Positions 7,151 to 13,934 of a DNA stretch of 64,000 bases are shown in pieces (within the stretch, counting starts at the first letter, position 1; each line of letters opens with the position of its first letter). The stretch covers positions 248,001 to 312,000 of the forward strand of contig CP120453.1 of NCBI GenBank assembly GCA_034226945.1, in the 5' to 3' direction. The DNA comes from Picochlorum sp. SENEW3 (taxonomy: Eukaryota). A model generated the notes under the pieces. The model was not told the origin of the DNA, made no database searches, and worked only from the letters and a program-made list of their open reading frames with translations. The position numbers were made by a program, and so were the translations under genes.

Positions 7151-9217
7151 TTGATGGATGAAAACGGGAACCCAGGCACGGTAGTCTCATCCATGAACAA
7201 CAGTATGGGTGGTGGGGATGGCGTCGAGGGTATGGAGCAGAGGTTGACGTCCTGTATAGAAAAGGCTCTTCAGGGGGTGGTGGTGGAACGTCAAGAGCAT
7301 GAAGGGCCTTCGTCAGGTGGAGATGCGCGTGAGGTGGATGCGTCGCAGCCAGCCACAGATATTGCTAGTGCGTTGGCGCACCAGACTCGTCATGGCTTGC
7401 GTCCTGAAGATATCCATGTGTTGGTCGTGGATGATGAGCGTATGTCAAGGACGATTGTATCGTCTCTTTTGAAAAAATGCAAGTATTCTGTGACAACAGC
7501 AGAGGATGGAGCTGAGGCTATGGAGTTGTTGAGGTCACACCCTCCTGGGACGTTTCATCTGGTTTTGACGGATGTTCAGATGCCTCACATGAACGGATTG
7601 GAGTTACTGCAGTATATTAGAAGTGAGGAAACGCTGCGCTGTGTCCCAGTGGTGATGATGTCGTCGTATGATAACGGCAATGTGGTGTATGATTGTGTGG
7701 AGGGTGGAGCTGAAGAGTACTTGGTGAAGCCAGTCACGCAAAAGGAGGTGCAGCGCATTTGGCAGCATGTATTGAAGAAACGAAGTGTGGCGACGACGGT
7801 GCCGCAGGCGGATGCGAAAATGATGCAGAATGTGGCATTGGCAAAGGAGGTTGACACGTGTACGAGTGGTGAGACTGGCCGGGAGAGCAAGAGTACTGTG
7901 ACAAGCGACTTTTTGAAAATGATGAGGAACAAACGAATTCAAGAGATTGCCGAGCTGAGGAGTCAAGTGAGCCAGCTTGAGAAGGACTGCAGCTTGGTGG
8001 AACGTATATGTGGCATGGAAATGAATGGTCATGGTGGAAAACGCCAAAAGTTTGACTCGGCAGTACTGGATAAAAAGAAGGAATTGGATAATGTGTACTT
8101 TACCAAAATACACAATGAACACAAAGAAGATGCATTGAAGCATTTTGCAAGAGATTTGAATGTGATGTCGCAGATGAATGCCTTCAATGTGACATCTGTG
8201 ATTCGCTCAGGGAATATGGCAAACCCGCAGGAAATGGTTTGCTGTGCGGATTTCGATGCAGATGATTTGCATTTTGCTACTGTGTCAGTATCTCGATCTG
8301 TCAAGGTGTTTGATTTCGAAAGTATGATGACTGCTCCAGATGCCTTGCAGTTTCCAGTGTGGCAGGCAACGACACGGGCAAAATTGAGTTCAGTTTCTTG
8401 GAATTCTTACATTCGATCTCATTTGATCACATCCGATTATGATGGATGCGTTCAGTTGTGGGATGTTTCCAGTGGGGCGACGAACGAGTTGACCCAGTTT
8501 GAGGAGCATTCAAAAAGAATTTGGAGCATTGATTTTTCTCGGTTGGATCCTCTCCAGTTTGCGTCTGCATCGGATGATTCCACCGTCAGACTTTGGAATT
8601 TACAGCAGTCTTCATCCATCGACTGTTTGAAAACCCCAGCGAATGCATGCTCTGTACATTTCTGTCCCTTCAAAGCAACAACTCTTGCTGTTGCGTGCGC
8701 AAATCATAATAGTTACATATTTGATACTCGCAAAACTGCAAGTCCAATTGCAGTGCTCACGGGAGCAAGTCGAGCCGTGTCGTATGTTCGGTTTTTGGAT
8801 CGCCATACTGTTATTGGTGCATCCACAGACAATACTGTTCGCGCATGGAATCTGGACACGGAAGGAGATGTGGTGCCACCTGCAGAAGAGTACAATGGCC
8901 ATGCCAACGAGAGAAATTTCGTTGGACTGAGTGTCCATCAGGACGGATTTATCGCCACGGGATCAGAAGACAACTCTGTCTGCTGTTATTATAGAGCATT
9001 TCCATTCCCCATCACCCAACACATGATTGACGCTGGCGATTCCGAGTCCGACAAAAAGCCCATGAGCTCAAACAACCCCAGAACATTTGTGAGCTCAGTT
9101 TCATGGGCGCGCCATTCAAAGCATCTCTTGGTAGGAAACAGCGAAGGCGTGCTCCAAGTATTACACATGAAAGAATTCAAGAACGATATGAATATGAATA
9201 CTACTTTGCCAAAATGA
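7151..9217 (+). CDS. Response-regulator receiver + coiled coil + COP1/SPA-type WD40 fusion protein
   Basis: Receiver motifs VLVVDDE, LVLTDVQMP, VVMMSS and YLVKP. WD40 motifs KLSSVSWNSY, SDYDGCVQLWD, EHSKRIWSIDFS, ASTDNT, GHANERNFVGL and GSEDN are typical of COP1/SPA. First ATG at 7154. Confidence 0.88.
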   Translation: MMDENGNPGTVVSSMNNSMGGGDGVEGMEQRLTSCIEKALQGVVVERQEHEGPSSGGDAREVDASQPATDIASALAHQTRHGLRPEDIHVLVVDDERMSRTIVSSLLKKCKYSVTTAEDGAEAMELLRSHPPGTFHLVLTDVQMPHMNGLELLQYIRSEETLRCVPVVMMSSYDNGNVVYDCVEGGAEEYLVKPVTQKEVQRIWQHVLKKRSVATTVPQADAKMMQNVALAKEVDTCTSGETGRESKSTVTSDFLKMMRNKRIQEIAELRSQVSQLEKDCSLVERICGMEMNGHGGKRQKFDSAVLDKKKELDNVYFTKIHNEHKEDALKHFARDLNVMSQMNAFNVTSVIRSGNMANPQEMVCCADFDADDLHFATVSVSRSVKVFDFESMMTAPDALQFPVWQATTRAKLSSVSWNSYIRSHLITSDYDGCVQLWDVSSGATNELTQFEEHSKRIWSIDFSRLDPLQFASASDDSTVRLWNLQQSSSIDCLKTPANACSVHFCPFKATTLAVACANHNSYIFDTRKTASPIAVLTGASRAVSYVRFLDRHTVIGASTDNTVRAWNLDTEGDVVPPAEEYNGHANERNFVGLSVHQDGFIATGSEDNSVCCYYRAFPFPITQHMIDAGDSESDKKPMSSNNPRTFVSSVSWARHSKHLLVGNSEGVLQVLHMKEFKNDMNMNTTLPK

Positions 9218-9383
9218 TTGCTCCTTTCCTTCTTTTTTTTTTTCTTCTTCTAGCTTCTGTGTAAATAAAGGAATGCATATTCTTTTTCTTCTGAATTGTA
9301 TGAAACACATTTTGTCGTCTGAAATTCATGTTGGCCATCGTTTTTTGCGTCATTTTTGAGGGTCGGGAAAAGACATTTTTGAG

Positions 9384-9390
9384 TATATAA
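9384..9390 (+). promoter_or_regulatory. TATA box upstream of the permuted tRNA gene
   Basis: TATATAA starts 27 nt before the GAACA that begins the putative leader (9411). Confidence 0.6.
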
Positions 9391-9431
9391 TCCAGAGAAA
9401 ATTCGGAAACGAACAGCCGATTTTGCTAACA

Positions 9432-9537
9432 TGCAGAGGGTCGGGGGTTCGATTCCTCCCAGCTCCACGTTTCGAGGGTATCAACATTATCCGAAGCATT
9501 TGGGGCTGTGGTTTAGTGGGATAACATCTGCTTCGCA
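9432..9537 (+). tRNA. Circularly permuted tRNA-Ala(CGC): 3' half 9432-9467, spacer 9468-9501, 5' half 9502-9537, junction at 37/38
   Basis: 5' half GGGGCTGTGGTTTAGTGGGATAACATCTGCTTCGCA; 3' half TGCAGAGGGTCGGGGGTTCGATTCCTCCCAGCTCCA. Acceptor stem GGGGCTG/CAGCTCC with the G3:U70 Ala identity pair, anticodon stem TCTGC/GCAGA, T arm GGGGG-TTCGATT-CCTCC, anticodon CGC at 9534-9536. Confidence 0.92.
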
Positions 9538-9543
9538 GCCGGC

Positions 9544-9549
9544 TTTTTT
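9544..9549 (+). terminator. Pol III oligo-T terminator
   Basis: TTTTTT just after the tRNA 5' half and its short trailer. Confidence 0.7.
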
Positions 9550-11615
9550 AATCTTTTGCATCATTGTCTTCTTCTATACGTTTATATTCATCTGTAGTCG
9601 CATTACAAGTCGATTTTGACCAAGAGAGTCTCACATCTCCAAACATATCTTCTATGTCCGGTCAAACGTTCCTTTTGATGCGATACATTTACCGTCTCAG
9701 GGAAAGCTTCCCACGATCCCTTTAAAAAGAGCCTTTGACAGGGGCTGTCAATCGAATTCGCGAATTTGAATTTACCCGCCTTGAAGGACAGACTATTCGA
9801 GAATCAATCAGCAAAACTCCGCCATCATGAGGCACTCCAGCATGTAATAGTCCTCCAATTCATACCATATATCCAACAACAGTAGTAACTATTCTCTGTT
9901 TAGGTACCGACTGTCTTTTCTTCTTCTCAAGTGTTGAGAGTAGAGCAGAGTAGTCGAACGCAAAGTCAACTTCAAACCGAAACTCTTGTACGTGCAATCG
10001 TATGTGCTTAGTAACACATATATATGTATATATTTGGCTGGAATCTATTTTTTCAAGCTGATCACCGCTCGAAACGGTTTCAACCGCGCGGTTGCGAGCG
10101 ACATCTACTACTCGATCAGCTCGAATCAACAATTCTGTCACAAACACTTTGTCGCGGCTTGTTCTATCAAATTCACAACGATTTATAGACATATTGCTAT
10201 TTCCGATATGCAGAGGCAACGGTGATATAGCATAGAGTGCTTTTCGGGTTTTTCTTGCTTTCTTTTTCTCTCAAAACGAACGAACCATGGCCAGCAACGA
10301 CAGTTTCCAAGAAACTTGCGAAAGAAAATCCAAGGATGGCCGCCAAATCGAACTGATTCGGATATTATGGATGGTATGCGATGCGGTTGAGGTCCGAGGG
10401 GGCTTTGATGCGACAATCATAGACTACAGTCTTCCTAGGAACATCAGACGACTGCCTCTTTTCCGTTATACAATCACCACTAGGGTGGCAATGGAACCGG
10501 CGATTGTCAATCAGAGAGTAACAAGAGCGATAAAAGAGCACATGGGTGATATAGATATAGCATATCGTTTGCCCAGACAAATTACAGGGAAATAGCACAG
10601 AAACACACATATTTCTTATTGTTTCACCAACGGGTCTCAACTATTCATTGGAGAAATTCCTATCCAGTAATGATGAAGCCAAAGATGCACTTTCAATAGT
10701 GTACAACGCATCAAAAGACACGAGCGCATCCTGGAAAAAACTGACGCCTACAGCGTGGGTTAACATACGTTTCCAGGTAGGTGCTTACATTCTGTGCAGT
10801 GCTAGCTATCAGGATCTCGCAGAGAATAAGAACTGGAAGCAGCTGGAAAAGAGTTTAGAGAGAAGCTTGAGCGAAAGTGTGGAAAGTGACAGCCAGGATG
10901 GCTTTTTCATGGAGAGTTATGATCCATTTGCTGAGGCAGATCCCTTCAGGTTCGACAACGGTGAAAATCGTTCCCTATAATCCCGATGATCGCATGTGCA
11001 TGATTTCTGAGAAGAGGAATACACTAAAAATTCAGTGAGTGAGTGGAAAGAGTACATGTGCGGTCATGGTGATGAATATCATCAAGGGGATGGCAGAGCC
11101 TGCTCGAATCTTTAGATCGATAGTCCATGATAGTATACTTGTAGTTATGCGCCGCGGTATCTAGTCTAGATATATATAGTAGCAGGGTGGTTTCTGGCAA
11201 TGATTTCTCTTCTGGGTATGAATCATTAACACTGAATTATTTCATGCACTGTTCGTACTTTATTATTCAACTTCTCGCTGTTTTATTTTTTCCCTCCTTT
11301 TTTTCTTGTAAGTAGCGAGTGTAGTATATCGGGGCTTCCTTTTATCTCCGTATCCTTCCTCTTTTTTTATTTTCTTCCTGTGTGGCACTGTTATCTTGGT
11401 TGTCTGTGTTGGGCGAGATGAGGAGCACAGGGACAAAGGGAAGCCCCGTGTACATGATGATCTACATTATTTCTTCGGCCTAAACTCGATGCGATCAAGT
11501 ACTATTACCGAGCAGAAAAAAACCAAAAAAACACTAGTAGTCTTACAGCAGCAAAATACGAAATCAATACACCCCAGGGGAAAAGAAGAAGAAGAAGGCA
11601 TGCATACATACTCTA

Positions 11616-13934
11616 CTAGGCAGAGTTCTTCTTGTGTGAGACACATCGTGCCATTGTTTTACTGGCTCGACTGATGGCATCCGTCTGATAAAACTGGCTG
11701 ATTGAGGTCTTCAGTGGGTTGCTGTTGTCTACTTTTGTCTTCTTTGCCTTTTCTGCAGCAAGCTTGGCATACTCTCCTCTGGAGAACAGAGATGACAGGG
11801 CTGGCTGGACAGTACCAGTAGAGACCAAGTGTGGTGCAACCTGAGCCAATCGTTGACGCATCTCGTCCAATGAGTTCACTGGCAAGGTATGGCCGCACAC
11901 CTCACTGAGGGCTCTAATAATCTCCCAATCATTCCTAGCCTGTGCAATAGGTGCCACTGCATTCTTTGTTGTCTGGGCACGTCCCTCTGTATTCACATAT
12001 GTGGCATACTTTTCCGTGTATGCAGCGCCTGGAAGAACAATATCGGCGCGTGATGCACCTCTATCTCCATGGTGACCCTGATAAATCACAAACGCATCTG
12101 CAGGGACGTCCTTTTCATCAAAATCATCAGAGCCAAGAAGGTAGACAACCTTGGGGTCCTCCTGTTGCATTCTTGCCTTCACACTTGGAATGAATCCAAC
12201 ATCCAATGCAGTCACACTCGAAGCAGTGTCATGAAGGATATTCAGACCCGACCAATCATCTCTCACCACACCTGCCTTGTCCACAAGCTTGTGAACCTTG
12301 GCCATGACAGCGTCTCTATCATCTCGCCTGAGAACCCCAGACCCAACAATAACCACAGGGTTTGATGCCCCACGCAAACGCTTGCACCATTCAGATGTTG
12401 TCTTTGAAATTGCATCGAGAGCGCTTGCCGTGTCACCCAGATGCTCATATGGATATGTGAGATCCACCTCTGAACCAACAACTCCAACTGGAACACCATA
12501 CATGGCTTGTGCACGGATTCTAGCATTCAATACAGGACCCTCCACCCTTGGGTTCGTTCCAATCAACAATATAGCATCCGCCTCATCAATACCGCTCAGT
12601 GTTGAATTGAACACATACGATCCACGGAGATCTGCATCCATATCCCCATATCCACTCTCATGCCTCACATTCCCACAACCCATCCTATTCATCAAATCCT
12701 TCAACGCCACCATAGACTCAGCGTCTGACAGCTTGCCTGCAATAGCTCTCATCGAATGCCCTGGAGTCTTGGCCAACACATCACGCACTGCAGACAGTGC
12801 CGTCTGCCATTCACATTCCTCCAAATGCCCTTGTGCATTCTTCACCATTGGACTCACCAAGCGCTGATACCGAAGCCCATCAAATTGATATCGAGTCTTA
12901 TCCGATATCCACTCCTGATTAATGCTCTCATTCAAACGAGGCAGGATTCTCATCACTTCATTTCCACGAGCATCCAAACGGATATTCGACCCCAACCCAT
13001 CACTCGTATCAATACTATCCGTGCTCCTCAACTCCCAGCTTCGATACGTAAACGCAGTAGGTTTGGACGTCAATGCACCCACCGGGCACAAATCCACCAC
13101 ATTCCCAGACAACTCAGACTCCATTGTCTTCTCCACATACGTCCCAATCTCTGCATCCCTCCCTCTCCCAGTAATGCCCAGATCCTCAATCCCAGCAACC
13201 TCCTTTGCAAAACGTACACAACGAGTACAATGAATACATCTGGTCATCACCGTCTTCACCAACGGCCCGAGATTCTTATCCTGAACCGCCCTCTTCACCT
13301 CTGTAAACCTGCTCCTATCAGACCCAAACACCATGGCCTGATCCTGCAAATCACACTCCCCACCCTGATCGCAAATCGGACAATCGAGAGGATGATTCGC
13401 CAACAAAAACTCCATCACACCCTCCCGAGCCTTCTTCACGAGAGGCGTATCCGTCTTGATGTTCATCCCAGGGTTGGCAGGCATGGCACACGACGCCACG
13501 GGTTTTGGCGATTTCTCCACCTCGACCAAACACATACGACAATTTCCAGCAATTGATAATCGCTGATGATAGCAAAATCTGCACAACCACGAGATACCGC
13601 ATGAGGACATCCTTCCCAGACTCAATCCCACAGAGTTGAAGACACTCGGCATCTTCTACCAACATATGAAAAAACCATACCTCGGGATATCCACACCGCC
13701 AGCTTCGCATGCCTGAAGGACATTGGACCCCTTTGGAACAGACACAGGTCGCCCATTCACAATGACCTCGACCATGTCTTCCTTCTCCACCGGTGCAGCC
13801 TCAGGCTGCGCAGAGAAACATCGACTATCAAATACAACCCCTCCATCATATTTTCCAAGCAGAGATGACCGAAGCAACGTCGCTCCCTTTCCCTGCCGAG
13901 CAGATGATCGCAGCAAGGCCTCGAGGCGCTGCAT
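11616..13934 (-). CDS. NDUFS1: NADH:ubiquinone oxidoreductase 75 kDa subunit; intron 13579-13680
   Basis: Splicing gives [23 protein letters not shown]; Fe-S motifs [19 protein letters not shown] and [18 protein letters not shown] intron. Confidence 0.96.

What the first reader, a model, noticed from the sequence alone, without database searches (positions are those of the whole stretch)
9411..9549. Circularly permuted tRNA-Ala(CGC) gene
Seen: the tRNA 3' half (9432-9467) lies upstream of its 5' half (9502-9537), separated by a 34-nt spacer that can form a hairpin. The halves rebuild a complete cloverleaf with G3:U70. Leader and trailer pair across the 37/38 junction like a tRNA intron: U32 with leader A-3 (A-I pair), GCA with UGC, and trailer CGGCU with leader AGCCG. 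A TATA box lies upstream and T6 downstream. Established: permuted tRNAs mature through splicing-endonuclease cleavage, a circular intermediate and RNase P/Z trimming; they are known from Cyanidioschyzon, some prasinophytes, a nucleomorph and Thermofilum. Inference: with A and B boxes in reversed order it likely relies on the TATA. Standard tRNA scanners miss such genes, and I do not know of a report from a Picochlorum-like alga.
Basis: partly seen in the sequence, partly recalled or inferred. Interest (0 to 1): 0.88.

Follow-up and report, generated by a model that had tools for sequence, protein, structure and literature searches.

The report
Permuted alanine tRNA gene, Picochlorum
A tiny green alga (Picochlorum) carries an alanine tRNA gene whose back half is written before its front half; the gene looks real and is kept by a relative, but genes of this kind are already known from other algae.

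Summary
The 3' half (9432-9467) lies 34 nt upstream of the 5' half (9502-9537). Re-joined, ARAGORN calls them tRNA-Ala(CGC) with G3:U70 and A73. ARAGORN and Rfam find no tRNA in the native window. A duplicated-window scan of all 64 kb hits only this locus.

The order is not an assembly artefact. Contigs from an independent study carry it without a difference. A relative's contig carries the same order with a 31-nt linker. That copy differs at 7 of 72 tRNA positions against 10 of 34 linker positions plus 3 deleted. Five changes keep or repair D-stem pairs and one turns CGC into UGC.

TATATAA lies 41 nt upstream and T6 six nt downstream. The leader-trailer pairing exists but is not above chance. 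No RNA data were available, so expression is inferred.

A neighbouring protein is 99% identical to one named Picochlorum sp. BPE23. I found no paper reporting permuted tRNAs in Picochlorum. They are published for Cyanidioschyzon, Ostreococcus, Micromonas, nucleomorphs, Thermofilum and the trebouxiophyte Auxenochlorella (2025). This scan found such genes before on other DNA, none in this genome.

Verdict: a real gene, a new member of a known kind.

The parts
9384..9390 (+). TATA-like element (TATATAA), 41 nt upstream of the first mature base; presumed TFIIIB/Pol III promoter
   Evidence: Motif located. Four variant positions seen in a second strain (9383, 9392, 9395, 9417) lie outside it. The promoter role is inferred from C. 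merolae (passages of PMC3978253 read).
9415..9431 (+). Leader, removed like the 3' part of an intron. AGCCG 9415-9419 pairs with the trailer, U-UGC 9423-9426 pairs with G35-C36-A37-G(+1), and A9429 can pair with U32. C9430, A9431 and U38 form a 3-nt bulge holding the 3' cut. The true 5' end is unknown; transcription probably starts near 9410-9416.
   Evidence: Constrained fold, energies (leader-trailer pairs add -9.6 kcal/mol; adding U32:A and U33:A costs only +0.4). The shuffle control shows this pairing is not above chance.
9432..9467 (+). tRNA 3' half, positions 38-73: anticodon-stem 3' strand, variable loop, T arm, acceptor 3' strand, A73. It holds the B box GGTTCGATTCC at 9446-9456.
   Evidence: No difference is listed in this stretch for the relative's contig.
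9468..9501 (+). 34-nt intervening sequence joining A73 to G1; it would be cut out of the circular intermediate by RNase P and tRNase Z. It can form a hairpin.
   Evidence: The relative's copy has 10 substitutions and 3 deleted bases here, so it evolves much faster than the halves.
9502..9537 (+). tRNA 5' half, positions 1-37: acceptor 5' strand with G3, D arm, anticodon-stem 5' strand, loop U32 U33 C34 G35 C36 A37. It holds an A-box-like TGGTTTAGTGG at 9509-9519.
   Evidence: The relative's 7 differences all lie here: 5 in the D stem (pair-preserving), A26>G and C34>U.
9538..9549 (+). Trailer GCCGGC (9538-9543) followed by T6 (9544-9549), the presumed Pol III terminator. CGGCU 9540-9544 pairs with the leader.

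Best explanation
This is a functional, circularly permuted nuclear gene for tRNA-Ala(CGC) of a Picochlorum alga, of the 'type II' kind with its junction in the anticodon loop. The likely pathway, all of it inferred by analogy, runs as follows. RNA polymerase III is positioned by the upstream TATATAA and starts near 9410-9416. It transcribes leader, 3' half, 34-nt intervening sequence, 5' half and trailer, and stops in the T6 run. The two halves fold into the cloverleaf, closed at the acceptor end by the intervening sequence. Leader and trailer pair with each other and with the anticodon loop, so the two free ends look like a canonical 37/38 intron. The tRNA-splicing endonuclease cuts after A37 (9537|9538) and before U38 (9431|9432). 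A tRNA ligase joins A37 to U38, giving a circle of 106 nt. RNase P cuts before G1 and tRNase Z after A73, which removes the intervening sequence. CCA is then added. Alanyl-tRNA synthetase recognises G3:U70 and A73, and the tRNA reads GCG codons. Shown here: the gene anatomy, its presence in independent DNA, and its conservation with compensatory changes. Not shown: transcription, the circle, the mature tRNA and charging.
For: Re-joined halves are called tRNA-Ala(cgc) with a full cloverleaf, G3:U70 and A73. This is the only such locus in about 3,189 duplicated windows of the 64 kb. There is no standard tRNA at or beside it, so it is not a tandem pair of whole genes. In run X5, from another study, one contig matches 9323-9447 and another 9443-9573, each with 0 differences. 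In run X11 (organism C) one contig spans 9431-9582 in the same order, with a 31-nt linker. It has 7 of 72 differences in the halves against 10 of 34 plus 3 deleted in the linker. U11:A24 becomes C:G, U12:A23 becomes A:U, and U13.U22 becomes U:A. Re-joined it gives tRNA-Ala(tgc) with a perfect 4-bp D stem, and no change breaks a stem. TATATAA lies 41 nt upstream and T6 lies 6 nt after A37; CCA is not encoded. These are the features listed for published permuted genes (PMC3978253, passages and Table 1 read). The 34-bp intervening length lies within the 5-64 bp listed there for green algae and the nucleomorph. Leader-trailer helices of 5 and 4 bp form when the cloverleaf is enforced, and the 3' cut falls in a 3-nt bulge next to a possible U32:A(-3) pair. 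GCG makes up 38 of 185 alanine codons in five long ORFs of the window, so a GCG reader is in demand.
Against: There is no RNA evidence of any kind. No run listed as RNA holds the stretch, and the one run guessed to be RNA was judged 'probably DNA' when laid. The leader-trailer pairing is not better than shuffled leaders (z = -1.26; 101 of 1000). The 5' cut site lies inside or at the end of a helix rather than in a 3-nt bulge, so a strict bulge-helix-bulge is not met. A T4 run (9421-9424) sits in the leader and could stop some Pol III transcripts early. The D stem has only three pairs, two of them A:U, plus a U.U mismatch. The exact junction cannot be read from the DNA: 'CA' ends both the leader and the 5' half, so cuts at 35/36, 36/37 or 37/38 give the same mature RNA. 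The whole genome is not held, so I could not test whether a normal Ala(CGC) gene exists or whether this copy is needed. In runs X12, X16 and a second form in X5, contigs cover the 3' half and the downstream block but not the linker and 5' half at 80% likeness. I read this as divergence, but it is unresolved.
Confidence: 0.84

Rival explanations
1. A dead relic: the remains of a rearranged or tandemly duplicated tRNA-Ala gene that is no longer transcribed or processed into a working tRNA.
For: No expression data. Weak D stem with a U.U mismatch. Leader-trailer pairing not above chance. T4 in the leader. tRNA-Ala(CGC) is dispensable in principle where a UGC isoacceptor exists (general knowledge).
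Against: The relative's copy keeps every stem through two double compensatory changes and one repair, while the linker diverges about three times faster. The 3' half shows no listed difference. TATA and T6 sit exactly where a transcription unit needs them. The flanks show no trace of the 'lost' halves: the upstream flank against the 5' half is matched by 1505 of 2000 shuffles, the downstream flank against the 3' half by 1992 of 2000. Any rearrangement is therefore old, yet the halves are intact.
Confidence: 0.08
2. The two halves are made as separate transcripts and joined in trans, like the split tRNAs of Nanoarchaeum, rather than through one permuted precursor and a circle.
For: Nothing direct; only that no precursor has been observed.
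Against: The halves are 34 nt apart on one strand. Between them there is no T-run of 4 or more and no TATA-like element. The only TATA is upstream of the 3' half and the only T6 is downstream of the 5' half. In algae where this was tested, a single permuted precursor and a circle were found (PMC3978253, section 6 passages).
Confidence: 0.03
3. The tRNA-like domain of another RNA with a naturally permuted order, such as a two-piece tmRNA or a Y-RNA-like RNA, or a tRNA-derived repeat.
For: Sub-threshold Rfam matches: tmRNA_permuted 27.1 bits at 9443-9508 (E 0.0024), beta_tmRNA 24.3 bits, YrlA 18.4 bits over 9414-9548.
Against: All lie far below the gathering scores of 47, 84 and 69. The locus has a complete D arm and anticodon arm with a normal 7-nt loop, which tmRNA lacks. 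The context is a eukaryotic nuclear gene-dense region. There is no second copy of the locus in the window. The tmRNA matches are the expected cross-hit, because tmRNA ends mimic tRNA-Ala.
Confidence: 0.02
4. An assembly artefact: the order of the halves was scrambled during assembly.
For: None found.
Against: Contigs of a different study (run X5) match 9323-9447 and 9443-9573 with 0 differences. A contig of another organism (run X11) spans 9431-9582 in the same order. By the tool's own 31-letter rule, the X5 contig bridges the linker/5' half boundary but has only 25 letters left of 9468; the X11 contig bridges both boundaries.
Confidence: 0.01

Closest known systems
[quoted passage not shown] 2010, as tabulated in Soma 2014, PMC3978253 Table 1; passages read)
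   Same: Green-lineage nuclear gene with the 3' half upstream. The junction is in the anticodon loop with a relaxed 'hBH' motif. The intervening sequence is within the listed 5-64 bp. There is no intron, CCA is not encoded, and an AT-rich/TATA-like element lies upstream.
   Different: A different class of green algae (Trebouxiophyceae, a core chlorophyte). A different tRNA: Table 1 lists Ser, Leu, Cys, Arg, Asn and iMet for green algae, and no Ala. Expression is shown for some of those genes and for none here.
Permuted tRNA genes of Auxenochlorella UTEX 250-A, example trnP-UGG (Plant Cell 2025, PMC12636532 / preprint PMC12633428; main-text passages and the legend of Supplementary Fig. S1 read)
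   Same: Also a trebouxiophyte with a small, streamlined diploid genome. The genes were found there because tRNAscan-SE gave an incomplete tRNA set.
   Different: Another genus and, in the one example I could see, another tRNA (Pro). The list of permuted genes in that paper was not visible to me, so I cannot say whether Ala(CGC) is among them.
Permuted tRNA-Ala(UGC) of Cyanidioschyzon merolae (Soma et al. 2007; Table 1 of PMC3978253)
   Same: The only permuted alanine tRNA in the 2014 table. [quoted passage not shown] A circular intermediate was shown for C. merolae permuted genes.
   Different: A red alga. The junction is in the T loop (type IV, 59/60), with an 8-bp intervening sequence and a UGC anticodon. 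It is clearly an independent event.
Two-piece (circularly permuted) tmRNA genes, Rfam RF04321
   Same: The same topology of the alanine-type acceptor/T-arm module: the 3' piece lies before the 5' piece and is joined by a linker that is cut out. It gives a weak Rfam cross-hit.
   Different: Bacterial or organellar, with no anticodon arm, carrying a tag reading frame, and never ligated into a circle. The score here is 27.1 against a gathering score of 47. Not a member.

Membership tests
Circularly permuted tRNA gene (algal/archaeal, Soma 2007 type) | 3' half encoded upstream of the 5' half on one strand, joined by an intervening sequence that links the acceptor 3' end to the acceptor 5' end | tested here: met
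   9432-9467, 34 nt, 9502-9537, all on the + strand.
Circularly permuted tRNA gene (algal/archaeal, Soma 2007 type) | Re-joined halves give a complete cloverleaf with the conserved tRNA nucleotides and the identity elements of the amino acid | tested here: met
   ARAGORN calls tRNA-Ala(cgc). U8, G18G19, U33, the TTCGA T loop, G3:U70 and A73 are visible in the printed cloverleaf.
Circularly permuted tRNA gene (algal/archaeal, Soma 2007 type) | Not simply two adjacent whole genes: the complementary halves are absent from the flanks | tested here: met
   ARAGORN finds 0 tRNAs in the native window and Rfam finds 0 at gathering score. The flanks show no similarity to the halves beyond chance. By contrast, 63 of the 120 metagenome loci matching the same end pattern had both sides inside ordinary ARAGORN tRNA calls, most of them tandem tRNA-Ala genes.
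Circularly permuted tRNA gene (algal/archaeal, Soma 2007 type) | Bulge-helix-bulge or relaxed (hBH) motif formed by leader and trailer at the junction | tested here: inconclusive
   The relaxed form is possible: anticodon stem, a 3-nt bulge holding the 3' cut, a 3-4 bp helix, an internal loop and a 5-bp outer helix. The strict two-bulge form is not met, and the pairing is not above shuffled leaders.
Circularly permuted tRNA gene (algal/archaeal, Soma 2007 type) | Upstream TATA-like element within about 50 bp and a downstream T-stretch; no promoter or terminator between the halves | tested here: met
   TATATAA at 9384-9390, T6 at 9544-9549, and no run of 4 or more T between 9425 and 9543.
Circularly permuted tRNA gene (algal/archaeal, Soma 2007 type) | Precursor, circular intermediate and mature aminoacylated tRNA detectable | not testable with these tools
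   No RNA holder was listed. Contigs cannot show it.
Circularly permuted tRNA gene (algal/archaeal, Soma 2007 type) | Kept under selection in relatives in the permuted order | tested here: met
   One relative's contig (run X11) keeps the order. It has 7 of 72 changes in the halves, all structure-neutral or compensatory, against 10 of 34 plus 3 deleted in the linker. Only one relative was informative.
Two-piece (permuted) tmRNA, RF04321 | Reaches the family's gathering score; tRNA-like domain without an anticodon arm, plus a tag reading frame | tested here: not met
   27.1 bits against 47. A full anticodon arm is present.
Split tRNA (trans-spliced halves) | Halves at separate loci, each with its own promoter | tested here: not met
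   The halves are 34 nt apart, with one TATA upstream and one T6 downstream.

The most novel reading that the evidence does not exclude
One old permutation event founded the alanine tRNA genes of the genus. The relative's copy has a homologous linker, the same downstream neighbour and a UGC anticodon, while this one has CGC. So either the anticodon was switched at one permuted locus, or a small family of permuted tRNA-Ala genes arose by duplication after the permutation, possibly together with the conserved multi-copy block that starts 5 nt after the terminator. In three contigs of two runs, a 3'-half-like piece is tied to that block at three different offsets. If so, decoding of some or all alanine codons in Picochlorum depends on the circular-intermediate pathway. 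With Auxenochlorella and the nucleomorphs, that would make permuted tRNA genes an ancestral and widespread trait of core chlorophytes, hidden in current annotations, and not a prasinophyte oddity.
Probability: 0.25. Interest if true: 0.55.

Novelty: new member of a known kind. Interest (0 to 1): 0.38.

Why it matters
Picochlorum strains are used as fast-growing production and evolution models, and their published tRNA counts come from standard scanners. The P. costavermella genome paper tabulates 42, 24 and 75 nuclear tRNAs for three Picochlorum genomes (PMC6141220). The BPE23 genome paper used Rfam cmscan and does not mention tRNA in its main text. A gene like this one is invisible to those tools, so the decoding sets, and any codon-usage reasoning built on them, are probably incomplete.

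The find adds a second trebouxiophyte genus and a new isoacceptor to the short list of permuted tRNA genes. It comes with rare comparative evidence: compensatory changes and an anticodon difference within the permuted frame. It also points to a compact, TATA-driven Pol III unit that does not rely on the normal order of internal boxes. That unit could be useful for expressing small RNAs in this alga (inference). It does not change what is known about how such genes work.

Tried and rejected
(1) Whole genome: none is held for this window. I could not test for a normal Ala(CGC) gene or for other permuted tRNAs outside the 64 kb.

(2) RNA evidence: no RNA holder was listed among 20 runs. Run X16, guessed to be RNA, was judged probably DNA when laid.

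No locus had both halves 80% or more identical to the window's (best pairs 0.75/0.69, 0.92/0.42). In 63 of 120, both sides lay inside ordinary tRNA calls. In 29 of 120, neither side did. Of those 29, 9 carry ARAGORN tmRNA calls, 8 of them marked permuted. The duplicated-window test on these loci is uninformative, because tandem genes pass it trivially.

(4) Viral contigs: 0 matches to a specific pattern of this gene.

(5) Leader-trailer pairing as evidence: rejected as not above chance.

(6) Relics of a tandem duplication in the flanks: none above chance.

(7) Linker hairpin conservation: the relative's changes include one compensatory pair (9480/9488) but also several mismatches, and the indels make the register uncertain. 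No claim is made.

(8) Joints 9470>9569 and 9471>9559 (X12) and 9472>9554 (X5). They could be copies lacking the linker and 5' half, or copies whose middle is too diverged to align ('between: not known'). The aligned 3'-half side starts at 9441-9443 in all three, where other contigs also break, which favours the second reading. This stays unresolved.

(9) Downstream ORFs between 9551 and 10977: no Pfam family at E 0.001 or better in 8 ORFs. No second copy in the window and no notable repeats.

(10) Supplements of the Auxenochlorella preprint: 0 occurrences of the terms searched. The journal version gave only the legend of Fig. S1. The figure itself and any list of permuted genes were not visible.

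(11) Earlier notes of this scan: none for this genome and no look-alike.

Full report
**What is there.** On the + strand, 9432-9467 encodes positions 38-73 of a tRNA. A 34-nt spacer follows (9468-9501), and 9502-9537 encodes positions 1-37. When a script joins 9502-9537 to 9432-9467, ARAGORN calls tRNA-Ala(cgc). The cloverleaf has a 7-bp acceptor stem containing G3:U70, discriminator A73, a 5-bp anticodon stem, the loop U-U-C-G-C-A-U, a 5-nt variable loop and a 5-bp T stem with a TTCGATT loop. The D stem has three pairs plus a U13.U22 mismatch. CCA is not encoded, since CG follows A73. On the native DNA, ARAGORN finds no tRNA in the whole window, and Rfam finds nothing at gathering score.

**Is it more than chance?** I cut the 64 kb into about 3,189 overlapping 240-nt windows, duplicated each head to tail so that a permuted gene reads as a gene with an 'intron', and ran ARAGORN with introns allowed. 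All 8 hits come from windows starting at 9301-9441. Seven give Ala(cgc) with a 134-nt pseudo-intron. The eighth window cuts into the 3' half and gives a spurious Arg call. A strict T-arm motif occurs twice in the window on both strands, once here. The locus is not a tandem pair of whole genes, because no standard tRNA overlaps or flanks it. The flanks show no similarity to the 'missing' halves beyond shuffles: 1505 of 2000 and 1992 of 2000 shuffles reach the observed scores.

**Whose genome?** The neighbours are eukaryotic nuclear genes in long open frames:
- a receiver-domain/WD40 protein at 7151-9217 (+);
- a carotenoid-oxygenase-like RPE65 protein;
- an LRR protein;
- a GST;
- the 75-kDa subunit of complex I at 11616-13652 (-).

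The complex I protein is 99% identical over 96% of its length to a protein named as from Picochlorum sp. BPE23. The next hits are unnamed at 82-84%, a 'Picre1' protein at 78%, and Micractinium and Chlorella at 68%. Picochlorum is a trebouxiophyte. I do not claim which record the window is.

**Independent DNA and a relative.** Twenty public runs hold parts of the stretch, and none is on record as RNA. I laid four of them, all as contigs, on 9200-9800 at 80% likeness.
- **Run X5**, a metagenome from a different study than the best holder, has one contig on 9323-9447 and one on 9443-9573, each with no difference. The second covers 25 nt of the 3' half, the whole spacer, the whole 5' half, the trailer and the T-run. 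A second form in X5 differs at 9383, 9392, 9395 and 9417 among the positions shown. All four lie upstream of the 3' half and outside TATATAA. The 9417 C>U change keeps a wobble pair with G9542.
- **Run X11** (organism C, 16 million letters) has a single contig on 9431-9582 with 24 differences and 3 gaps, of which 21 differences are listed.
  - None is listed in the 3' half.
  - Ten substitutions plus three deleted bases fall in the 34-nt spacer.
  - Seven fall in the 5' half: 9512 T>C with 9524 A>G, 9513 T>A with 9523 A>T, 9522 T>A, 9526 A>G and 9534 C>T.

Applying the listed changes by coordinate and re-joining gives tRNA-Ala(tgc) with a perfect 4-bp D stem. This amounts to two double compensatory changes, one repair of the U.U mismatch, a purine exchange at position 26 and a change of the wobble base, with no stem broken. 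The spacer changes about three times as fast as the halves. This is the strongest evidence that the permuted gene is under selection as a tRNA. It also excludes an assembly artefact.

**Signals around it.** TATATAA lies at 9384-9390, 41 nt before the first mature base. The B box GGTTCGATTCC lies at 9446-9456, upstream of the A-box-like TGGTTTAGTGG at 9509-9519. T6 lies at 9544-9549. A T4 run lies at 9421-9424 in the leader. The box consensus sequences are recalled, not taken from a call. The reversed order of the boxes and the position of the TATA and T-run match what the 2014 review describes for permuted genes (PMC3978253; passages of sections 4-6 and 8 and Table 1 read). TATA dependence here is an inference.

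**The junction.** With the cloverleaf enforced, the fold pairs leader 9415-9419 with trailer 9540-9544 (5 bp), and 9423-9426 with G35-C36-A37-G9538 (4 bp). Together these are worth -9.6 kcal/mol over the cloverleaf alone. Adding U32:A9429 and U33:A9428 costs only +0.4 kcal/mol. In that structure C9430, A9431 and U38 form a 3-nt bulge next to the anticodon stem, with the 3' cut inside it. That is the geometry of the anticodon-intron pair of eukaryotic pre-tRNAs (recalled). The 5' cut lies within or at the end of the helix, next to an internal loop. This fits the relaxed 'hBH' form that the review ascribes to green-algal permuted genes, not the strict two-bulge motif.

The pairing is not statistically remarkable. 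Of 1000 shuffled leaders, 101 reach the native energy and 126 reach 12 leader-trailer pairs. The cut position is also ambiguous from the DNA. Both the leader and the 5' half end in CA, so junctions 35/36, 36/37 and 37/38 give the same product. The 37/38 position is chosen by analogy.

**Rivals.**
- **Dead relic:** disfavoured by the compensatory changes and the intact signals.
- **Trans-spliced halves:** disfavoured by the 34-nt distance, with no terminator or promoter between the halves.
- **Permuted tmRNA or Y-RNA-like RNA:** suggested only by sub-threshold Rfam matches (27.1, 24.3 and 18.4 bits against gathering scores of 47, 84 and 69). It is contradicted by the complete D and anticodon arms and by the nuclear context. 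The cross-hit is expected because tmRNA ends mimic tRNA-Ala.

**What is known.** The 2014 review lists 34 permuted tRNA genes: 11 in Cyanidioschyzon merolae, 19 in two Ostreococcus and two Micromonas, 2 in the Bigelowiella nucleomorph and 2 in Thermofilum pendens. The green-algal ones are nearly all type II, with intervening sequences of 5-64 bp. The only alanine gene is the red-algal Ala(UGC), type IV. Two permuted Ser genes are also reported for the Amorphochlora nucleomorph (PMC4494063, passages). A 2025 paper on Auxenochlorella, a trebouxiophyte, reports that tRNAscan-SE gave an incomplete set and that permuted tRNA genes were then found, with trnP-UGG shown (PMC12636532 and its preprint; main-text passages and the legend of Fig. 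S1). A 2026 review still names only O. tauri, C. merolae and B. natans (PMC13578239, passages).

For Picochlorum I found no report.
- The searches 'Picochlorum' + 'permuted' (7 papers, none on tRNA genes of Picochlorum by listing), 'permuted tRNA' + 'Trebouxiophyceae' (5 papers) and 'permuted tRNA' + 'alga' from 2014 (25 papers) gave nothing.
- The P. costavermella paper only tabulates scanner counts.
- The SENEW3 paper used tRNAscan-SE.
- The BPE23 genome paper has no occurrence of 'tRNA' in its main text.
- Subscription papers are outside the library, Maruyama 2010 itself was not read, and supplements I could not see may list more.
- This scan has met permuted tRNA genes before on other DNA (Ostreococcus, C. 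merolae, an algal virus). It has none in this genome and no look-alike.

**Verdict.** This is a real, conserved, circularly permuted tRNA-Ala(CGC) gene in a Picochlorum nuclear genome. It works, most likely, like the published type II genes. It is a new member of a known kind: a new genus and a new isoacceptor, with comparative support. Expression and the circular intermediate remain to be shown, and the rest of the genome could not be searched.

Noticed in passing
window 9554-9800 (and probably on to about 10200), minus strand: The stretch that starts 5 nt after the tRNA terminator is matched by several different contigs in each of the four runs laid, from at least four 'organisms'. Contigs break at the same places (9652/3, 9704/8, 9766, 9779), as for conserved exons of a multi-copy gene family. 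A minus-strand frame ends at 9551. No Pfam family, no second copy in the window. In three contigs a tRNA 3'-half-like piece is tied to this block at offsets 9554, 9559 and 9569.
   Followed up: partly
run X16, loose end before 9544 (table 7): In organism E the 30 letters shown just before the T-run and the conserved block differ from the window and contain a C-U-G-U-A-A-like string, as in a tyrosine anticodon loop. A different tRNA half may sit at the same place there. This is only a hint from 30 letters.
   Followed up: no
metagenome loci L002, L003, L021, L038, L047, L052, L061, L093, L103: My too-general end pattern also picked up tmRNA genes. Of the 29 loci where neither side lay in a tRNA, 9 have ARAGORN tmRNA calls and 8 are marked as permuted (two-piece) tmRNA. 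The other 20 are unexplained.
   Followed up: partly
window 7151-9217 (+): A 688-aa open frame combines a response-regulator receiver domain (residues 90-201) with a C-terminal WD40 propeller. It ends 215 nt upstream of the 3' half, so the tRNA gene lies in a gap of about 330 bp between two convergent genes.
   Followed up: no
window 9430-9431 and 9536-9537: The dinucleotide CA ends both the leader and the 5' half, so the junction could be 35/36, 36/37 or 37/38 with the same mature sequence.
   Followed up: yes
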